Shown here: piece after piece, positions 2,300 through 22,992 of the stretch | Layout of the letters: each line of letters begins with the position of its first letter | How positions within the stretch are numbered: position 1 is the first letter of the stretch | DNA from: a virus | Taxonomy: Duplodnaviria; Heunggongvirae; Uroviricota; Caudoviricetes | Virus record (IMG/VR): IMGVR_UViG_3300030000_000409 | Span: 10,284-74,283 of that record | Reading direction: 5' to 3' (one strand) | Length of the DNA: 64,000 nucleotides | The notes under the pieces: generated by a model | Databases searched by the model: none | Told to the model about the DNA's origin: nothing | Seen by the model: only the letters and a program-made list of their open reading frames with translations | Made by a program: the position numbers and the translations under genes

Positions 2300-2326
2300 A
2301 AAAAGGAGTCCTAGGACTCCTTTTTT
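2300..2326. terminator. bidirectional rho-independent terminator
   Basis: AAAAA-GGAGTCC-TA-GGACTCC-TTTTTT: a perfect palindrome flanked by an A-tract and a T-tract, between convergent genes 1649..2158 (+) and 2325..3059 (-). Confidence 0.7.
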
Positions 2327-3059
2327 AGTTTAGCTTCTTGTCTACCAACATTGAAGATTGCGGTATAAGATTTAATTTTGGTAATTGTGTTCTTAGTGAA
2401 GAAAATGTGTTATAATAACCTGATAAAGTAGATACTTTCAATCCACTAACATTAGGAATAACAACAGTATAAACTTCTTTTGTTGTAGGTGAAACAATTA
2501 CCTTAAACAATTTGTCAGGAATAAGAGTACCATCAGACATTTTCTTTTCTGGTTGAGATGTAAAAATTGGACCAGTAATTATAAAAGTTGTTTTCTTATT
2601 AAGTGTTAAGATTTGAGTTCTATGTTCTAATGATTTCCAAATTCCTCTATTATTGTTAAGTGGTTGAGGAACAATATTTGTTAAAAAGAAACTTTCATCT
2701 GCAGCAACTATGTCATCCGCAAAATCATCAAATGGTGCAAGATGCCCTTTATCGTAATCAGTTCCAACAAAGGTTGCATTACTTGCTTGGAGTGATGATG
2801 CAACATTTGGATCTGATCTAAAATGATCTCTTCGTTTAACGTTTTGGTTTTTAATATTGTCTTCTGTTAATTTTTCAGATGTCCAAAGAGGAGTTTTTCT
2901 AACTTTTGAATATCCAACAACATAACGTTTATGACAGATAATTGTAACAGGTTCAACAGATACTGGAAAAACTCCATTATAAACCAAATCATTACAAGTC
3001 TGCGCATGAACAGAAATACTTAAGAGTCCAATAAATAATATCAGTATATAATTTTTCAT
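2325..3059 (-). CDS. secreted DNA/RNA non-specific endonuclease (beta-beta-alpha-Me, Serratia NucA/EndA-like)
   Basis: N-terminal signal peptide MKNYILILFIGLLSISVHA|Q. Active-site-like DYDKGHLAP (the DRGH motif family) and downstream NN..RG.W residues. Confidence 0.6.
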   Translation of the reverse strand: MKNYILILFIGLLSISVHAQTCNDLVYNGVFPVSVEPVTIICHKRYVVGYSKVRKTPLWTSEKLTEDNIKNQNVKRRDHFRSDPNVASSLQASNATFVGTDYDKGHLAPFDDFADDIVAADESFFLTNIVPQPLNNNRGIWKSLEHRTQILTLNKKTTFIITGPIFTSQPEKKMSDGTLIPDKLFKVIVSPTTKEVYTVVIPNVSGLKVSTLSGYYNTFSSLRTQLPKLNLIPQSSMLVDKKLN

Positions 3060-3275
3060 TTAAAATTCCTATATTAAACGTATATTTATAACAACTCACA
3101 AAAGGAATACTGATTATGGAAATCTCAACAAGCCTGATAAACGGACTAGCAGTTGGTGTTGAATATGTTCAAGGATTTGAAGAAAATGATGATGATTTTG
3201 AACATATGTTGTTGATAAGCTTTTTTCTTATTTCGTTTATATTTGAATGGTCACCTTTTGATCCGGAGGAAATTG

Positions 3276-3764
3276 ATGAATGATAAATCTGAATCCCAGT
3301 TGTTGAAATACATTAGGTCAAATGAACGAGCTCAGTATGCTAATGCAATTATTTCAATAGTTGCATCATTTATTTGTGTTTATTGTGTGTTCGGTTTTGG
3401 TATTTCCCAATTTGTAATGGGTACTATTTTCACATACATGATGAGCAAAGTGATGAACTTTTTTACTTCTATGTATTTCAAAATTTTACTCATTGGTGGG
3501 TATTATGGAGATGGAACACCGGAACCAACTGAAAATCCAAGAGGCCTCCAAGAGGCAACATTCAATGTTGTTAAGACACCAGAATCAGCACTTGGTAAAT
3601 TTATGGATGTAGAATTCTTTGATTGGATTGATCTCAAAGATCAAGATGGAAAGATACAGAGATGGAAATTTATTGGTACTACAAACACCAACAATCCACA
3701 AGCACGATTGGGATCAAATACAATGATTATGCAGCCTGGATTACTTTATCAGGTTGAACAATAA
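3276..3764 (+). CDS. small membrane protein (2 TM), unknown function
   Basis: ATG at 3276 is preceded by GGAGG. Hydrophobic segments IISIVASFICVYCVFGFGISQFVMGTIFTYMM. Confidence 0.4.
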   Translation: MNDKSESQLLKYIRSNERAQYANAIISIVASFICVYCVFGFGISQFVMGTIFTYMMSKVMNFFTSMYFKILLIGGYYGDGTPEPTENPRGLQEATFNVVKTPESALGKFMDVEFFDWIDLKDQDGKIQRWKFIGTTNTNNPQARLGSNTMIMQPGLLYQVEQ

Positions 3765-3770
3765 ACCAAG

Positions 3771-3799
3771 TTTACAATAAATATTTCCTAGGTTATAAT
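3771..3799 (+). promoter_or_regulatory. sigma70-type promoter (TTTACA-17-TATAAT)
   Basis: -35 TTTACA at 3771-3776, exact 17-nt spacer, -10 TATAAT at 3794-3799. The predicted TSS is ~3806, immediately before the 5' strand of the long stem. Confidence 0.55.
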
Positions 3800-3807
3800 T
3801 TCTTTAT

Positions 3808-4159
3808 GAAAACGCAATAATCAATTTTCACAACAGTTAGAGTTGATTAACTAAATCTAGTAAAACCCCTGTTAGCTATTAGGTACGTGAGTTGAAAGAT
3901 AAGCAACCGAAATAGATACTTGCAATTTAAATTAAAATTGATATTTGTCAGTTAAGAATAAACTGATAGGAATTTCTGATCCTTCGTAACAAGATAACAA
4001 GAAATATTGTAGGAAGAAACCTAATAGGAAATACTGGGTAAGCCGAAACTTCCCGGTGTAGGTAGATTAAATCAAAATGATGGATTAAAATTTATCATTG
4101 TTAATAGACCGAAAATTCTCGACTTTGCTTTTTGTTGGGAAATTGATTATTGCGTTTTC
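3808..4159 (+). ncRNA. candidate structured ncRNA (~350 nt) closed by a 20-22 bp terminal stem; possible Y-RNA-like partner of the downstream Ro60
   Basis: 3808-3827 (GAAAACGCAATAATCAATTT) is the perfect reverse complement of 4140-4159 (AAATTGATTATTGCGTTTTC). Pairing extends by a U-G and a C-G (3828-3829 with 4138-4139). The interval has no convincing ORF and lies between a consensus promoter and the Ro60 start at 4202. Confidence 0.4.
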
Positions 4160-4201
4160 TCTTTGCTGTAATGTTGCAGCCGCTTTTAAAGGAAATCAAA
4201 A

Positions 4202-5812
4202 ATGTCAAACTTTTACGTTGATACCGTTGCGCCAAAAATCTCCAAGCAAGTAACTCCTCAAACTGAAAAAATTCCAGGTCGCGAATCAGAAATGGTTGCG
4301 AACAATGCTGGTGGTCAAGTTTTTGCTCTTGACATGTGGAGCTACTTGGATCGATTCTTGATTCTCGGAAGTGATAAACCTTCCTACTATGCAACTGCAC
4401 AGAAGTTGACAAAAGATGCAGCTAAAAATGTCTCAGTTTGTATCAGTGCAGACGGTGTGAAAACTGTTAATCGCATTGTTGAAATCTCTCAAGGTGGTCG
4501 TGCTCCTAAGAATGATTCAGCAGTATTTGCTCTTGCAATGTGTGCAGTTTCCGGTGATGCCGAAACTGTTGCTGCTGCTTATGATGCACTATCAAAGGTT
4601 GCACGAATCGGTACCCACTTGTTCCAATTCGTTGATGCAATAAATTCAATGGGTAAATGGAATGCTGCTGCTAAACGCGGTGTTGCTGCTTGGTATACTA
4701 AGCGTGATGAAACTCGTTTGGCTGTTCAACTCTTGAAATATCAATCACGTAATGGTTGGTCTCACCGTGATGTCTTGCGTCTTGCTCACATCAAGCCAAC
4801 AAACGAATCACAGTCAGCATTGTTCCGTTATGTAACCAAGGGTGCTGAAGGTGTCGAACAAGGAACCATTGTTCCACAACTTTTGATTGATTTCGAGACT
4901 TTGAAGCGTGGTGTAGATTCTAAGAAGGTGATCAGCATCATCGAATCTAACAAGGATATTTCATGGGAAATGATTCCTACTGAATTCCAAAAAGACGTAA
5001 ATGTTATGGCAACACTTATCCCTGGTATGGGTGTTACTGCACTGATTCGTAAGTTGGGTCAACTAACTTCTTTGGGTTTGGCTAAACCTCTTTCCACTGA
5101 ATTGAAAGCAATCGTTGATAAGTTGACTGATGTTGCTGCAATTAAGTCAGGACGTGTTCACCCAATCACTATCTTGAATGCATTTAACCAATACAAACAA
5201 GGTCATGGTGATAAAGGTTCATTGACTTGGACTCCATCTCAACATATTCTTGATGCATTGGATGCTGCATTTTACGATGCATTTCAGTTCATTGAATCAA
5301 CTGGTCAGGGTCACCTTATCGGTGTTGATTGTTCTGGTTCTATGTTTAGCTACCAATGTATCGGTGCTAGCAATATCACTGCCGCAGAAGCAGCTGCTGT
5401 AATGGCTTTGGCTGTTGCGAAACGTGAATCCAATTACTGGATCGGTGGATTCAACACTCGTATGGGTGAATTGAAGATTTCTCCATCTATGCGTCTTGAT
5501 GCAGTTCTGAATGTTATGCGTAAGTTCTCTTGGGGTGGAACTGATTGTTCTCTTCCAATGGAACATGCTATCCAACAGAAAATGAGCAACGTTAACAAGT
5601 TCATCGTCTTTACTGACAATGAAACTTATGCAGGTAAGCGTCAGCCTGTGCAAGCTTTGGCTGATTACCGTAAGCGCTATGTTCATGATGCTAAGTTGAT
5701 CGTATGTGGAACTTCGGTTACCAACTTTACGATTGCTGATCCTAAGGATCCAGGCATGTTGGATATTGCAGGATTTGATTCTGCTGTACCTCAGTTGATT
5801 CAGAGTTTTTGA
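4202..5812 (+). CDS. rsr: Ro60-like TROVE-domain protein with C-terminal vWA (MIDAS) domain
   Basis: LDRFLILGSDKPSYYATAQKL and DSAVFALAMCAV match conserved Ro60/Rsr TROVE segments (LxRFLxxGSExGTYY, PMLFALAIC). The C-terminal GVDCSGSM is a vWA DxSxS MIDAS motif. GCT/GGT/CGT/GTT-rich codon usage resembles highly expressed phage genes. Confidence 0.75.
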   Translation: MSNFYVDTVAPKISKQVTPQTEKIPGRESEMVANNAGGQVFALDMWSYLDRFLILGSDKPSYYATAQKLTKDAAKNVSVCISADGVKTVNRIVEISQGGRAPKNDSAVFALAMCAVSGDAETVAAAYDALSKVARIGTHLFQFVDAINSMGKWNAAAKRGVAAWYTKRDETRLAVQLLKYQSRNGWSHRDVLRLAHIKPTNESQSALFRYVTKGAEGVEQGTIVPQLLIDFETLKRGVDSKKVISIIESNKDISWEMIPTEFQKDVNVMATLIPGMGVTALIRKLGQLTSLGLAKPLSTELKAIVDKLTDVAAIKSGRVHPITILNAFNQYKQGHGDKGSLTWTPSQHILDALDAAFYDAFQFIESTGQGHLIGVDCSGSMFSYQCIGASNITAAEAAAVMALAVAKRESNYWIGGFNTRMGELKISPSMRLDAVLNVMRKFSWGGTDCSLPMEHAIQQKMSNVNKFIVFTDNETYAGKRQPVQALADYRKRYVHDAKLIVCGTSVTNFTIADPKDPGMLDIAGFDSAVPQLIQSF

Positions 5813-5853
5813 GGTTACTGACGATACCATTTAGGTGGTAGTTAACTTCTCAT

Positions 5854-5887
5854 ATGGGATATAGTGTAATGCTTTATCCCATTTTTT
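5854..5887 (+). terminator. rho-independent terminator after the Ro60 gene
   Basis: ATGGGATA-(13 nt loop)-TATCCCAT followed by TTTTTT. Confidence 0.6.
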
Positions 5888-6335
5888 ATAACTAGGAAAT
5901 AAAATGCTAGAACGTTTGTGTCTTTACATAAAGAACTTATTTGAATCTTGTGCAGAAATGTCAATTCACACTCAGATGTGGACTGATGGATATTCTGATT
6001 ATGAGATTGAACTTGCAATTAAAAATTATCGCAATGAAGAAAATGAATCCTAAAACGAAAAGTCCAAAAGAGAGATTGGTATTACCAACAACCCCTGAAA
6101 AACGTGCACTCACATTGCTTATTCAATTGTGGAGAGTTTATGATGCGGGTGGTATTTCAGTCGGAAGATGTTTTGAGTCAGTACTTCTTGAAGCAGCAAT
6201 AGATTTATTAGGTGAACCAGATCATGATGACATTGATAGAGCAGATTCAAAGGGTGCAGAGTTAGTCAATGAAACACGTGATTATTTGTCAGCTATCCGA
6301 TTGAAAGAATACAATGAAAAATGGGGGCTAGAAGC

Positions 6336-6860
6336 ATGAAAGATTTCAGTATTATCTGCGCAGTGTCTTTAGATGGAATCATTGGTGATTCTGAAACAAA
6401 TACAATTCCTTGGTATCTTCCAAGCGACCTAAAACATTTCAAAGCGTTAACTTTAGAAAAAACTGTTGTTATGGGATCACGTACCTTCAGAAGTATTGGT
6501 AGGCCACTGCCAAATAGAGACAATATTGTTATAAGTAGGACTCCATTTATCCAAGAAGGTGTTAAAGCAATCTATAGAAGTTTTGAAGATGTTCATCGCT
6601 ATGAACATGATGGATTTGTTGTGATTGGTGGTGAACATATTTACGGTGAAGCACTCAAACATTCACCATCTACAATGTTTATAACGGTTGTCAATTCTTT
6701 ACCAGATGGTGATGTAAGGTTTCCAATTGCGGGCAGGCGATTCCTTCAAGATTCCGTTTTGACTTCAACTAATATCAAATACACTTGTTCTGATAGGTCA
6801 GAATGGCTAAATGAAAATGGGATAGAATTCCAATATACAGAATTTAAAAGGGCACAATGA
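6336..6860 (+). CDS. frd: dihydrofolate reductase
   Basis: MKDFSIICAVSLDGIIG...IPWYLPSDLKHFKALTLEKTVVMGSRTFRSIGRPLPNRDNIV matches the DHFR signature. Start taken at the second ATG, which is preceded by GGGGG. Confidence 0.85.
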   Translation: MKDFSIICAVSLDGIIGDSETNTIPWYLPSDLKHFKALTLEKTVVMGSRTFRSIGRPLPNRDNIVISRTPFIQEGVKAIYRSFEDVHRYEHDGFVVIGGEHIYGEALKHSPSTMFITVVNSLPDGDVRFPIAGRRFLQDSVLTSTNIKYTCSDRSEWLNENGIEFQYTEFKRAQ

Positions 6861-7411
6861 AAATTTTTATTGACACAGAATTTACAGATTTCATAAATCA
6901 AGACTTAATTTCAATTGGTGCAGTTGCTGAAAACGGTGAAACATTTTATGGTGAAAATGCTGAGTTTAAGAGAGCTTGGTCTTCTCAATTTGTAAAAGAT
7001 AATATCTATCCACTACTTAACATGGATAAATTTGGTATGCGACGAGTCGAACTTGCATCTAGATTGTGGGCATGGATGGAAGAGTTTGATTGTGATATCA
7101 CCATTGTCGTTGATTATCTGGGTGATAGTGAATTACTTAATCATCTATTTCAAGATGACCATCCGAAAATACAAGAACATCATCTTATCAAGATGGTTAT
7201 TTGGAACAAATGTGCCAACTATTTTCTTCCCGAAAATGAAGAAAAGTTTAAATTAGTTTTTAACAAAATGACAAATGCATTTAAAACTCATCTAAATGAA
7301 TATTTTCTCGTTACCGGTGAGCACCCACATCATTCATTATCAGATGCTAAAGCAAATAGGGAAGCATATTTGAGAGTGTTTAAAGATTTTCAAAATAAAG
7401 TGTACTTCTAA
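6857..7411 (+). CDS. dexA: DEDDh-family 3'-5' exonuclease (T4 DexA-like)
   Basis: Exo I motif IFIDTEFTD, with downstream D and H-x4-D motifs (VVDYLGD, HHSLSD). Confidence 0.55.
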   Translation: MKIFIDTEFTDFINQDLISIGAVAENGETFYGENAEFKRAWSSQFVKDNIYPLLNMDKFGMRRVELASRLWAWMEEFDCDITIVVDYLGDSELLNHLFQDDHPKIQEHHLIKMVIWNKCANYFLPENEEKFKLVFNKMTNAFKTHLNEYFLVTGEHPHHSLSDAKANREAYLRVFKDFQNKVYF

Positions 7412-21199: not shown

Positions 21200-21781
21200 A
21201 TGATTACAAATTTTTTAATTGAGGGACTAGATAGATTAGGAAAGGATACCCTTATCGATGGATTATTAAATCGATATGGGTATGCTGAAGTCCATCATCG
21301 TAAGAAACCATTATCGCTTTCCTTTTACAACAATTTTGCTACTCCAAATCGTTCAGGTTTACAGCTTTATCAATCTTCGTGTTTCAAACATGACATGCAA
21401 TTATTGAAAGTTTCTGAATTATGTGGTATTAAAAATATCTTCAATCGTGCATGGTTGGGTGAAGCTGTTTATTCAAATCTCTACCGAGGATATGACGGCA
21501 ATTACGTCTTTGAATTGGAAAATGAATGTGATCTTCACAAATTACAATCAACTCGACTGATTCTTTTAATTGAAGATTTTAATACTTCCAAACACTTTGT
21601 TGATGATGGTGACTCATTTGACATTTCTAAACGTGTTGAGGAACAGGACATGTTCGTTAGAGCGTTTGATAAATCATTGATCAAAGATAAACGAATTGTA
21701 TGTGTCACTGATTTTAGGACCGGTCAATTCAAAAGCAAAGAACAAATACTTGAAGAAGTAACAATGGAGATTACCACTTGA
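21200..21781 (+). CDS. 1: deoxynucleoside monophosphate kinase, T4 gp1-like (hm-dCMP/dNMP kinase)
   Basis: IEGLDRLGKDTLIDGL parallels the T4 gp1 P-loop LSGVKRSGKDTTADFI. Start and stop overlap the neighbouring genes, consistent with one operon. Confidence 0.5.
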   Translation: MITNFLIEGLDRLGKDTLIDGLLNRYGYAEVHHRKKPLSLSFYNNFATPNRSGLQLYQSSCFKHDMQLLKVSELCGIKNIFNRAWLGEAVYSNLYRGYDGNYVFELENECDLHKLQSTRLILLIEDFNTSKHFVDDGDSFDISKRVEEQDMFVRAFDKSLIKDKRIVCVTDFRTGQFKSKEQILEEVTMEITT

Positions 21782-22992
21782 AAGTAGCAGTAATTAAATT
21801 GGGGTCCCGCATTTCTTTTAATGCCAATGATACATCCGGGGCAAACGGTGAAGCTCGAAGTATCTGTAAAATGTTGAAGCTTGGTGGAGCCGAAGTTCAT
21901 ATTTACACAAAAATATTGAAGAAAGATAATCTTATCGAAGATTATCATTGGCATTCTTTAAACACTGTAGAAGCATCTAAAGTAAGTGATATTGAAGAAC
22001 GTATTTTTGTTGATAAATATTCAAGCACTTATATTGAACACCGTAAAATTCAATTAGTTGGTGACCTATCTAATATGGATGCATTGGTTGTACTAAATGG
22101 AACAGTTCAATTTTATGGTGGTGAGGAAGATCCAGAACAATTGTTGAATTATTTTATCATCAACAACTTCAAGGGTAAAGTGTTCTACATTTACTGTGAT
22201 CCAGAACTTACATTGAAGCAGGTATGGCCTTCAGTTTCAAAGAAGCCTTGGGCTAGTAACTGGTCACAATCTGATCTTGAGATAACCCGTACAGATATCG
22301 TTTATTTAAGTCAACCACATAATGTTAACCACATTTTAGATGACCTTAAAAAGAACGAAGTTATTCCTCGAGAAATTATTCACTACCCTTTTGAACAGTT
22401 TCCGTGTTTGAATGAACAACTCCCATTCAATCCATCTCCTGAAGTTGATCTATCTTATGGTGGAACAATGCGTGGTGGTAAACGTGAAAAGAAGATGGCA
22501 AGATTTTACTTTGGACATACTTCAGAACTTTCTGTTGAAATGTTCGGTAAGATTAAAGAGGAAGATTTCAACCCTAAAAATATCTTCGGTTTAACAACAC
22601 CAACATTTTCTGGTCCAGTCAAGTACGATGACATGCTTCCTAAAATGAATAAGTCGATGGCACATTGTGTTATCGGTGATCCATATTATGAAAAGATTGA
22701 AGATATGGCACAACGTTGCTATGAATCTATCTGGTCAAATGTTGTGACTTTCATTGACAGTGACATGGATAAGTTACGACGAGTGTATGGTAAAGATAGA
22801 GTTTTGTCTGATTTTCTTTATGTCACAGATCGTCAAGAGCTAGCAGAAAAGATTCTTCTACTCAAGGAAGATAATGATCTAAGAAAACAAATTCTTCAAG
22901 ATCAACTAAAGGCGGTGAACTTCAATCCTGAAAAATACTGTACAGATTTTGTTAACCTTATTAAACTTTTTGCATCACTAAAATATGATTAA
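21778..22992 (+). CDS. bgt: DNA beta-glucosyltransferase (hmC-DNA beta-glucosyltransferase)
   Basis: Collinear with T4 beta-gt as recalled: MKVAVIKLGSRISFN vs MKIAIINMGNNVINF; KVFYIYCDPELTLKQVWPSVSKKPWA vs KIYYLFTDIRLPFSQSWPNVKNRPWA; DLSYGGTMRGGKREKKM vs DVIYGGSFRSGQRESKM; CVIGDPYYE vs LIIGDKNYN. TTG start with GGAG 9 nt upstream. Confidence 0.75.
   Translation: MKVAVIKLGSRISFNANDTSGANGEARSICKMLKLGGAEVHIYTKILKKDNLIEDYHWHSLNTVEASKVSDIEERIFVDKYSSTYIEHRKIQLVGDLSNMDALVVLNGTVQFYGGEEDPEQLLNYFIINNFKGKVFYIYCDPELTLKQVWPSVSKKPWASNWSQSDLEITRTDIVYLSQPHNVNHILDDLKKNEVIPREIIHYPFEQFPCLNEQLPFNPSPEVDLSYGGTMRGGKREKKMARFYFGHTSELSVEMFGKIKEEDFNPKNIFGLTTPTFSGPVKYDDMLPKMNKSMAHCVIGDPYYEKIEDMAQRCYESIWSNVVTFIDSDMDKLRRVYGKDRVLSDFLYVTDRQELAEKILLLKEDNDLRKQILQDQLKAVNFNPEKYCTDFVNLIKLFASLKYD

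What the first reader, a model, noticed from the sequence alone, without database searches (positions are those of the whole stretch)
3771..5887. Self-contained unit: promoter, ~350-nt stem-closed RNA, Ro60/TROVE-vWA gene, terminator (candidate phage Ro60 RNP with a Y-RNA-like partner)
A consensus sigma70/T4-early-like promoter (TTTACA-17-TATAAT) places the TSS 1-2 nt before a perfect 20-nt inverted repeat. Positions 3808-3827 and 4140-4159 pair, extendable to 22 bp, enclosing ~310 nt with no credible ORF. A Ro60 orthologue with phage-adapted codon usage starts 43 nt after the 3' strand of the stem, and a strong terminator follows the gene. In bacteria, Ro60/Rsr works with Y RNAs whose 5' and 3' ends form the Ro-binding stem. 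The geometry here (ends paired into a long stem, RNA adjacent to rsr) fits that pattern, but the RNA is about three times longer than known Y RNAs. It could instead be a structured leader or a processed ncRNA. I know of no Ro60-Y RNA module described in a T4-like hmC phage, so this is a candidate novel RNP for RNA surveillance or host-RNA decay during infection.
Basis: partly seen in the sequence, partly recalled or inferred. Interest (0 to 1): 0.8.

Follow-up and report, generated by a model that had tools for sequence, protein, structure and literature searches.

The report
Oversized phage Y RNA beside Ro60
The 350-base stem-closed RNA in front of this phage's Ro60 gene is a real, conserved structured RNA that carries the hallmark Ro60-binding module of bacterial Y RNAs, but it has a large new domain where known Y RNAs have a tRNA-like one.

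Summary
In detail: promoter (3771-3799), a 20-nt perfect inverted repeat that extends to 26 bp, the Ro60 ORF (4202-5812) and a terminator.

The RNA is conserved upstream of Ro60, on the same strand, in 32 distinct sequences from uncultivated T4-like and jumbo phages. Four helices are supported by covariation (P1, H1, H2, H3).

Its inner P1 end carries the module 'stem-C|CG...N5-9...UUGGUUAYC ... pyrimidine run|G-stem'. The same module flanks every Ro60-linked RNA I examined:
- mycobacteriophage ET08 YrlA
- distant phages
- bacterial genomes (GRGC|CGAAG-N6-9-GGGUUAYC, i.e. the published GNCGAA(N)G plus YUAY motifs)

So it is a Y RNA by its Ro60-binding module.

It lacks the tRNA-like T and D arms. 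Rfam YrlA and tRNA models and ARAGORN found nothing, although the YrlA model did detect ET08. In their place is a ~250-nt multi-hairpin domain with its own conserved motifs, which matches no Rfam family.

Most relatives also have a short (~50-130 nt) sibling Y RNA between the promoter and the long RNA. The window lacks it.

Phage Ro60-Y RNA modules are already known (mycobacteriophages, Thermus phage phiLo). What is new is the class of RNA, not the RNP concept. Ro60 binding, RNA processing and the job of the new domain are all inferred.

The parts
3771..3799 (+). Sigma-70 / T4-early-type promoter: TTTACA (3771-3776), 17-nt spacer, TATAAT (3794-3799). Predicted start about 3806.
   Evidence: 11 of 12 positions. 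The same (G)TTTAC-N17-19-TAnAAT lies upstream of the RNA unit in 12 of 32 related loci, including the four closest relatives L124-L127.
3808..3834 (+). P1 5' strand: 20-nt perfect arm 3808-3827, then U-G and C-G pairs, bulged A3830, then CAAC.
   Evidence: P1 covaries in 32 sequences: 85.5% of cells paired versus 50.6% in shuffles.
3835..3851 (+). 5' half of the Y-RNA basal (Ro60-binding-type) module: AG (CG in four other contigs of the same phage), spacer UUAGAG, then UUGAUUAAC (family consensus UUGGUUAYC).
   Evidence: Corresponds to GNCGAA(N)G plus YUAY of Chen et al. 2014.
3852..4003 (+). Variable part of the inserted domain. Includes the motif GUUGAAAGAUAAGC (3891-3904), which recurs in at least nine relatives, and a CCGAAA at 3905-3913.
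   Evidence: No covariation test was done on this part.
4004..4062 (+). Conserved core of the inserted domain: AUAUUG, hairpin H1 (4010-4023), AUAGGAAAUA (4024-4033), hairpin H2 (4034-4056) and UGUAGG (4057-4062).
   Evidence: Covariation: 91.5% paired versus 63.9% in shuffles. Model R1 hits 4002-4064 at 33.7 bits, E 3e-5, the only hit in the window.
4061..4110 (+). Hairpin H3, closed by GG...CC and variable in length among relatives.
   Evidence: Base of H3: 79.4% paired versus 59.8% in shuffles.
4110..4133 (+). 3' junction: CGAAAAUUCUCGAC...UUUUU (family consensus YGAAR-N2-UCCGAY-N4-9-U run). It ends at the pyrimidine run that faces the CG of the 5' module.
4134..4159 (+). P1 3' strand: GUUG, GG, then the 20-nt perfect arm 4140-4159.
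4162..4182 (+). Conserved hairpin HP3: UUU|GCUGUAAUGUUGCAGC|CG, 6 nt before the Shine-Dalgarno sequence (4188-4195). Reads as a circularly permuted copy of the basal module.
   Evidence: Present at the same place in about 30 of 32 loci. The function is a hypothesis.
4202..5812 (+). Ro60 / Rsr orthologue (TROVE ring plus vWA domain), 536 aa.
5854..5887 (+). Intrinsic terminator: 8-bp stem AUGGGAUA / UAUCCCAU, 12-nt loop, U run.

Best explanation
The RNA at 3808-4159 is a phage-encoded Y RNA, meaning the non-coding partner of the Ro60 protein encoded just downstream. It belongs to a structural class that has not been described.

**Shown by sequence and comparison**
- One early-type promoter drives RNA and gene, with no terminator between them.
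- The two ends of the RNA pair into a long stem (P1) that covaries.
- The inner end of P1 carries the same module found in Ro60-linked RNAs from bacteria and other phages: last pair C-G, then CG(AAG), a 5-9-nt spacer and GGUUAYC on the 5' side, and a pyrimidine run on the 3' side.
- Where YrlA has its tRNA-like T/acceptor/D module, this RNA has a ~250-nt domain of at least three covarying hairpins. They are joined by conserved strings (RAUAGUUG, AUAGGUUACC, GGUGUAGG, YGAAR-UCCGAY).

**Inferred**
- Ro60 binds the basal module on the outside of its ring, as in Xenopus and Deinococcus.
- The RNA is cut out of the leader, as M. smegmatis YrlA and YrlB are cut from one precursor upstream of rsr.
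- The new domain acts as the effector arm. It would tether Ro60 to a host or phage factor, probably a 3'-5' exoribonuclease or another RNA-handling enzyme, early in infection.
For: **Conservation and position**
- 32 distinct sequences have the RNA upstream of Ro60: the window, 25 IMG/VR phage contigs, 2 MAG contigs and the 4 closest relatives.
- Covariance model R1 of the core hits 37 sources (36 loci plus the window). All hits are on the Ro60 strand. Nearly all lie 120-250 nt upstream of Ro60; L026 and L031 are exceptions at about 600-870 nt.
- All hits are in Ro60 loci of at least about 53% identity. There were no hits in about 55 other Ro60 loci, in ET08, or elsewhere in the window.

**Covariation**
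- P1: 85.5% of cells paired versus 50.6 +/- 2.1 in shuffles (0/500) and 38-46% when slid. 11 of 12 pairs change on both sides.
- H1 and H2: 91.5% versus 63.9%.
- H3: 79.4% versus 59.8%.
- About 9% of paired P1 cells are G-U. This fits RNA on the + strand, not a DNA structure.

**Basal module shared with accepted Y RNAs**
- ET08 has three tandem modules of 59, 130 and 56 nt. The 130-nt one contains the Rfam YrlA hit.
- Bacterial genomes of several phyla show GRGC|CGAAG-N6-9-GGGUUAYC ... pyrimidines|G.
- The motif is strand-specific upstream of Ro60. Plus versus minus strand counts are 62:1 (this clade), 50:2 (distant phages) and 28:3 (bacteria).
- It corresponds to GNCGAA(N)G plus YUAY of Chen et al. 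2014.

**Same phage, other samples**
- In four other contigs of the same phage, the only difference in 437 nt restores the consensus C|CG at 3835.

**Arrangement matches precedent**
- A short plus a long RNA sit upstream of Ro60 in most relatives. This is like YrlA/YrlB in M. smegmatis and Yrl1/Yrl2 in phiLo.

**Protein and composition**
- The protein is a full-length canonical Ro60.
- CGAA and CCGA are enriched in the RNAs: 76 versus 49.9 +/- 6.1, and 69 versus 36.3 +/- 5.3.
Against: - There is no direct evidence that the RNA accumulates as a discrete species or binds Ro60. All of this is comparative inference.
- No terminator or known processing site separates the RNA from the ORF. It is at least initially the mRNA leader.
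- The window's own copy deviates from the module consensus: A instead of C at 3835, UUGAUUAAC instead of UUGGUUAYC, and UCUCGAC instead of UCCGAC.
- No Rfam Y_RNA, YrlA or tRNA match, and no tRNA-like arms.
- The helix alignments were anchored by hand on conserved motifs, and the sequences are related. The shuffle statistics therefore overstate significance somewhat.
- The middle third of the RNA (3852-4003) has no tested structure.
- The partner of the new domain is unknown.
Confidence: 0.75

Rival explanations
1. It is purely a cis-acting leader. The structured 5' UTR controls translation or stability of the Ro60 mRNA, for example through Ro60 feedback binding, and never acts as a free RNA.
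For: - No terminator lies between the RNA and the ORF.
- The RNA is usually immediately upstream, with P1 ending 31-153 nt from the ATG.
- The conserved hairpin HP3 abuts the ribosome-binding site.
- HP3 plus the Shine-Dalgarno region resembles a permuted Ro60-binding module.
Against: - Most relatives have two independent stem-closed units in tandem, short and long.
- In L019, L021 and L026 an ORF appears to separate the RNA pair from Ro60.
- The same basal module occurs in accepted trans-acting Y RNAs that lie up to kilobases from Ro60, or downstream of it.
- A 250-nt conserved multi-hairpin domain is more than an operator needs.
- M. smegmatis Y RNAs in the same position are processed out and bound by Rsr.
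Confidence: 0.15
2. It is a structured RNA that works with a different partner, or is itself a ribozyme or decoy (for example a mimic of a host RNA). On this view it is linked to Ro60 only by operon position.
For: - The inserted domain matches no known family and has strongly conserved single-stranded strings.
- Hairpin loops rich in UCGAA resemble T-loops in part of the clade.
Against: - The basal module is the one shared by Ro60-linked RNAs everywhere.
- The model of the new core found hits only next to Ro60. However, only Ro60 loci could be searched.
Confidence: 0.07
3. It is a DNA-level element, such as terminal inverted repeats of a mobile element, an origin, or a recombination site.
For: A 20-nt perfect inverted repeat encloses about 310 bp without an ORF.
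Against: - Arm sequences differ completely between relatives while pairing is kept. About 9% of the pairs are G-U, which would be mismatches in DNA or on the other strand.
- The internal hairpins covary as well.
- Position and strand relative to Ro60 are fixed.
- There are no other copies in the window.
Confidence: 0.02

Closest known systems
YrlA (bacterial and phage Y RNA-like RNA, Rfam RF02553; Chen et al. 2014, PMC4201824)
   Same: - Encoded next to Ro60 on the same strand.
- The 5' and 3' ends form the closing stem.
- Same junction module: C|CG(AAG), spacer, GGUUAYC (= GNCGAA(N)G plus YUAY), with pyrimidines on the 3' side.
- A second, shorter Y RNA is often present in the same transcript.
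   Different: - No T arm, acceptor-like stem or D arm. The YrlA and tRNA models give no hit, although the YrlA model detects ET08 at E 2e-5.
- Length is about 350 nt versus about 110-130 nt.
- The inserted domain has its own conserved motifs.
Short Y RNAs without a tRNA-like module (S. Typhimurium and M. smegmatis YrlB, D. radiodurans Yrn2)
   Same: The short sibling RNA of the relatives (~50-130 nt between the junction bases) is of this type: basal module plus a small hairpin. The long RNA shares their basal module.
   Different: - The window lacks the short RNA.
- The long RNA carries about 250 nt of extra conserved structure.
Yrl1 and Yrl2 of Thermus phage phiLo (PMC12135203)
   Same: - Phage-encoded.
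- Two RNAs upstream of the phage Ro60 gene, identified by a CGAA motif in a stem-bulge-stem.
- Shown to bind phage Ro60 and host PNPase.
   Different: - The phiLo protein is very distant from this one (E 3e-9 versus 1e-93 or better for canonical Ro60).
Metazoan Y RNAs (Rfam RF00019)
   Same: - Terminal stem formed by both ends.
- The Ro60 site is a helix with a bulged C, GGUCCGA on the 5' strand.
- Here ACCGR faces UUUUG. This can be drawn the same way: A-U, C-G, bulged C, G-U. The drawing uses my own recollection of the Y RNA 3' strand.
   Different: No sequence or model similarity. Size and the internal domain are unrelated.

Membership tests
Bacterial/phage Y RNA in the broad sense (Ro60-associated RNA) | Encoded within about 4 kb of a Ro60 orthologue, on the same strand | tested here: met
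   The RNA ends 42 nt before the Ro60 ATG on the same strand. The same holds in the related sequences examined.
Bacterial/phage Y RNA in the broad sense (Ro60-associated RNA) | The 5' and 3' ends pair into a long closing stem | tested here: met
   26-bp P1 in the window. Covariation in 32 sequences.
Bacterial/phage Y RNA in the broad sense (Ro60-associated RNA) | Ro60-site motif GNCGAA(N0-1)G near the 5' end, at the top of the stem | tested here: inconclusive
   - The clade consensus is (R)CCG(R). The short siblings often have ACCGGAA or ACCGAA.
- The window reads AACAGUU; four other contigs of the same phage read AACCGUU.
- Position and flanks are the same as in ET08 and bacteria, but the full GNCGAA is not kept.
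Bacterial/phage Y RNA in the broad sense (Ro60-associated RNA) | Conserved YUAY (within GGUUAYC) some 10-15 nt after the CGAA motif | tested here: met
   UUGGUUAYC in most of the 32 sequences. The window has the variant UUGAUUAAC. The same string occurs in ET08, distant phages and bacteria.
Bacterial/phage Y RNA in the broad sense (Ro60-associated RNA) | Physically bound by Ro60 | not testable with these tools
   Needs EMSA, CLIP or co-purification.
YrlA (Rfam RF02553) | tRNA-like domain: T arm (GGUUCGAAUCC), acceptor-like stem, D arm (GUAGCUCA..GGUAGAGC) | tested here: not met
   - No YrlA or tRNA hit at E<=10 in 3000-7000, at E<=0.5 in the whole window, or at E<=1 in 15 relatives.
- ARAGORN found nothing.
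- Positive control: ET08 YrlA detected at E 2e-5. Distant phage loci give YrlA or tRNA-like hits.
YrlA (Rfam RF02553) | Length about 80-130 nt | tested here: not met
   352 nt in the window (3808-4159). 222-339 nt between the junction bases in relatives.
Metazoan Y RNA (RF00019) | Match to the family model, and the conserved GGUCCGA / UUGAC bulged helix | tested here: not met
   No model hit. Only the core CCG(A) and the facing U-run-G are alike.
Ro60 / Rsr protein (TROVE plus vWA) | TROVE HEAT-repeat ring followed by a Ro60-type vWA domain, full length | tested here: met
   Pfam PF05731 at 3.7e-30 and PF25045 at 8.7e-53. PDB matches 9nen, 1yvp and 2nvo over residues 17-536.

The most novel reading that the evidence does not exclude
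The ~250-nt insert is a new Y-RNA effector module. It would recruit Ro60 to a partner other than the tRNA-type enzymes or PNPase engaged by known Y RNAs, or present several CGAA loops to several Ro60 rings. In addition, Ro60 would repress its own translation by binding a circularly permuted copy of its Y-RNA site: UUU|GCUG-loop-CAGC|CG-spacer-GGAG(N)AUC, which contains the Shine-Dalgarno sequence. That would make this a self-regulating phage RNP with a new specificity, deployed early in infection.
Probability: 0.3. Interest if true: 0.8.

Novelty: new variant of a known kind. Interest (0 to 1): 0.6.

Why it matters
- Y RNAs are thought to be modular: a Ro60-binding stem plus an effector module that decides what Ro60 is tethered to. 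In all bacteria and phages studied so far, at least one Y RNA per genome has a tRNA-like effector module.
- This phage clade keeps the Ro60 module but swaps the effector for a large, well-conserved structured domain that matches no Rfam family, and it has no tRNA-like Y RNA nearby.
- That gives a natural experiment on what Y-RNA effector domains do, and on why large virulent phages carry a Ro60 RNP.
- It also defines a new RNA family with dozens of members, which could be added to Rfam and used to annotate phage metagenomes.
- The generalised basal module (GRGC|CGAAG-N6-9-GGGUUAYC ... pyrimidines|G) is a simple, strand-specific marker. It can find Y RNAs of any architecture next to Ro60 genes.

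Tried and rejected
- **DNA similarity.** blastn and megablast of the unit, and of 24 kb of the window, against 50,697 phage genomes found no match. No cultured relative is available.
- **Rfam and ARAGORN.** Rfam on the region, on the whole window and on 15 relatives gave nothing relevant. ARAGORN found no tRNA or tmRNA.
- **Metagenome scan.** I used look-ups of individual homologues instead.
- **Pattern scan.** Not used.
- **Fold tools.** RNAduplex on long flanks over-extended the interaction. I replaced it with motif-anchored ungapped helices. MAFFT plus RNAalifold on unanchored blocks gave no structure.
- **Retron msr/msd.** Considered and dropped: no reverse transcriptase.
- **T-box leader, or mimic of the 16S rRNA 3' end.** Some strings look alike (GGUAACC, GUAGG, GUCGUAA), but they sit in different structural contexts, there is no Rfam hit, and the strings are not conserved across the clade.
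- **Transposon ends.** Dropped because of the covariation and the G-U pairs.
- **H1/H2/UA/H3 as a degenerate T/acceptor/U8-A9/D arrangement.** The order and some GUCGAAU loops fit. However, there is no model similarity and the window's own H1 loop is AAGAAA. I left this as a remark.
Full report
**1. The observation**

- **Inverted repeat.** The arms 3808-3827 and 4140-4159 are perfectly complementary. It is the longest perfect inverted repeat within 600 nt in the whole window.
- **Extension.** Pairing continues through U-G and C-G pairs, a bulged A3830, and CAAC/GUUG (3831-3834 with 4134-4137). The stem is therefore 26 bp.
- **Promoter.** TTTACA-17-TATAAT (3771-3799) is the best promoter match in 3000-7000, at 11 of 12 positions. 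It puts the start 1-2 nt before the stem.
- **Fold.** 3806-4162 folds at -98.3 kcal/mol, z = -7.8. The only ORFs of 30 aa or more that touch the region overlap its 3' end.
- **Gene.** ORF 4202-5812 is a full-length Ro60 with TROVE plus Ro60-type vWA domains. PDB matches are 9nen at 8e-106, Xenopus Ro60 at 6e-99 and Deinococcus Rsr at 1e-93.
- **Terminator.** A hairpin with a U run follows at 5854-5887.

**2. Genomic setting**

- The window has no DNA-level relative among 50,697 deposited phage genomes.
- It encodes both T4-type topoisomerase II subunits, DHFR, a helicase, a beta-glucosyltransferase homologue and tail-fibre-like proteins. Together with the GTTTAC-type -35 element, this fits a distant T4-like phage.
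- Ro60 proteins of 53-78% identity occur on uncultivated phage contigs of up to 368 kb.
- Among 185,579 species genomes, only two MAG contigs come close, at 57-61%. The clade is therefore phage-borne.
- Gene order is kept in the closest relatives: a ~150-175-aa ORF, a ~500-nt gap, then Ro60, with DHFR following in two of them.

**3. The RNA is conserved and structured**

- **Alignment.** I anchored on conserved strings and aligned 32 distinct sequences: the window, 25 IMG/VR contigs, 2 MAG contigs and 4 closest relatives.
- **P1.** The arms have unrelated sequences in different phages but stay complementary.
  - 85.5% of cells pair, versus 50.6 +/- 2.1 in shuffles (0/500) and 38-46% when the partner is slid.
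  - 11 of 12 pairs change on both sides.
  - About 9% of paired cells are G-U. These would be mismatches on the other strand or in DNA.
- **Internal helices.**
  - H1 and H2: 91.5% versus 63.9%.
  - Base of H3: 79.4% versus 59.8%.
- **Covariance model R1.** A model of H1-J-H2-UGUAGG found 37 matches in 494 kb.
  - All are on the Ro60 strand. Nearly all lie 120-250 nt upstream of the ATG; L026 and L031 lie about 600-870 nt upstream.
  - All are in loci whose Ro60 is at least about 53% identical.
  - None are in about 55 more distant phage or bacterial Ro60 loci, in ET08, or elsewhere in the window.
- **Caveats.** The sequences are related and I chose the anchors. The statistics are strong but not formal probabilities.

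**4. What kind of RNA it is**

*Negative results.*
- Rfam's YrlA and tRNA models, metazoan Y_RNA and ARAGORN find nothing in the window or in 15 relatives.
- The negative is meaningful. The same search detects the published YrlA-like RNA of mycobacteriophage ET08 at E 2e-5.
- It also finds YrlA or tRNA-like RNAs next to the more distant phage Ro60 genes.

*The decisive comparison is at the inner end of P1.* In all 32 sequences:
- P1 ends with a C-G pair.
- The 5' strand continues with CG (AG in the window), 5-9 variable bases and UUGGUUAYC.
- The 3' strand is preceded by a run of U.

*The same architecture flanks accepted Y RNAs.*
- ET08 has three tandem units of 59, 130 and 56 nt. The 130-nt unit contains the YrlA hit.
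- Distant phages and bacteria from several phyla show GRGC|CGAAG-N6-9-GGGUUAYC ... pyrimidines|G.
- Within 900 nt upstream of Ro60, the motif is almost exclusively on the Ro60 strand: 62:1, 50:2 and 28:3 in the three sets.
- This is the GNCGAA(N0-1)G motif plus the YUAY motif. Chen et al. 2014 proposed the first as the Rsr-binding site, related to the GGUCCGA bulged helix contacted by Xenopus Ro60.

So the RNA has the Ro60-binding module of bacterial Y RNAs. Where YrlA carries its tRNA-like module, this RNA carries a different domain of about 250 nt.

**5. Extra features seen through the relatives**

- **(a) A short sibling RNA.** Most relatives have a second, short unit with the same basal module between the promoter and the long RNA.
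  - It spans about 50-130 nt between its junction bases.
  - This parallels YrlB/YrlA of M. smegmatis, both upstream of rsr and cut from one precursor, and Yrl1/Yrl2 of phage phiLo.
  - The window, L012, L020, L024 and L033 have only the long RNA. In the window and L024 the promoter then abuts P1 directly.
- **(b) A single-base difference at the key C.** Four other metagenome contigs of the same phage (identical Ro60) differ from the window at one position in the 437-nt intergenic region. Position 3835 is A in the window and C in the others, which restores the invariant C|CG.
- **(c) The HP3 hairpin.** A hairpin UUU|GCUGN...NCAGC|CG sits between P1 and the Shine-Dalgarno sequence in about 30 of 32 loci.
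  - Read as pyrimidines|G-stem-loop-stem-C|CG, it is a circular permutation of the basal module.
  - In 11 of 28 loci the following GGAG(N)AYC resembles GGUUAYC. This test is post hoc and weak.
  - This suggests, but does not show, feedback binding of Ro60 at its own ribosome-binding site.
- **(d) Motif enrichment.** CGAA and CCGA are enriched in the RNAs. They often lie in the H1 and H2 loops.

**6. Mechanism**

*Shown:*
- A single transcription unit.
- A covarying fold.
- Homology of the basal module with Ro60-linked RNAs.
- Absence of tRNA-like arms.

*Inferred:*
- Ro60 binds the P1 junction.
- The RNA is released from the leader. P1 is long enough to be a double-strand-specific processing site, but no site is known.
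- The new domain is the effector arm that brings Ro60 to a partner.

By analogy with RYPER (Ro60-Y RNA-PNPase) and with phiLo, a 3'-5' exoribonuclease is the first candidate. A DEDD-type nuclease gene lies two genes downstream, but I have no evidence for a link. The early-type promoter argues for action early in infection.

**7. Rivals**

- **Leader-only role.** Not excluded. It is disfavoured by three things: the tandem short-plus-long units, loci where an ORF appears to separate the RNAs from Ro60, and the trans-acting precedent.
- **DNA-level element.** Contradicted by the covariation with G-U pairs.
- **RNA unrelated to Ro60.** Contradicted by the shared module.

**8. Novelty**

- Phage Ro60 with Y RNAs is known.
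- I found no paper describing a large Ro60-linked RNA without a tRNA-like domain in T4-like or jumbo phages.
- The RNA matches no Rfam family.
- I rate it a new variant of a known kind: a new structural class of Y RNA.

Noticed in passing
window 3835: The window has A where four other metagenome contigs of the same phage (identical Ro60 protein; L248, L249, L251, L253) have C. It is the only difference in the 437-nt intergenic region, and it falls on the nearly invariant C of the C|CG junction. It could be a natural variant, or a sequencing or assembly error.
   Followed up: partly
L124-L127, L007, L010, L015, L017 and others, about 100-190 nt upstream of the long RNA: Most relatives carry a short sibling RNA (GGAAC|CGGA..UUGGUUAUC..hairpin..UUUU|GUUCC, about 50-130 nt) between the promoter and the long RNA. 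The window lacks it.
   Followed up: partly
window 4162-4195: The conserved hairpin UUU|GCUG..CAGC|CG just before the Shine-Dalgarno sequence looks like a circularly permuted Y-RNA basal module. It may be a Ro60 autoregulatory operator.
   Followed up: partly
L049 1289-1424, L050 1186-1341, L062 1187-1315, L063 395-522, L079 766-889, L083 46-189: Distant phage Ro60 loci have 124-156-nt full-length 'tRNA' matches near and upstream of Ro60. In L062, L063, L079 and L083 the long insertion between the D and T arms contains the CGAU-N7-GGUUAUC (or GGUUACC) module. L049 and L050 carry a variant (CCGA..GAUAAUC). These would be tRNA-shaped Y RNAs with the Ro60 module in the anticodon/variable position, a different topology from YrlA.
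   Followed up: partly
L080, L086, L101, L087 (ET08): Tandem arrays of 3-6 Y-RNA basal modules (GGGC|CGAAG-N-GGUUAUC) flank Ro60 in some phages and bacteria. ET08 has three, only one of which is the annotated YrlA type.
   Followed up: partly
window 6857-7411 (+): A 184-aa protein matches PHROG 'RNase H' (6.6e-19) and, weakly, the Rv2179c-like 3'-5' exoribonuclease family (E 0.0055, below cut-off). It lies two genes downstream of Ro60, after DHFR, and the same order is seen in L126 and L127. It is a candidate nuclease partner, but this was not examined further.
   Followed up: no
window 2325-3059 (-): A DNA/RNA non-specific endonuclease (Endonuclease_NS, 2e-34) with an N-terminal hydrophobic, signal-like segment is encoded on the opposite strand upstream of the unit.
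   Followed up: no
window 21778-22992 (+): A homologue of T4-type beta-glucosyltransferase (PHROG 7922, 1.9e-51).
   Followed up: no
window 5904-6053 (+): A 49-aa ORF directly after the Ro60 terminator is called as a gene in most other contigs of the same phage. It matches no family.
   Followed up: no
L023, L065, L088 upstream regions: The more distant members of the clade lack the GTTTAC-type promoter. They share a CTATAAAATAGC-like string upstream of the short RNA, possibly a different, phage-specific promoter.
   Followed up: no
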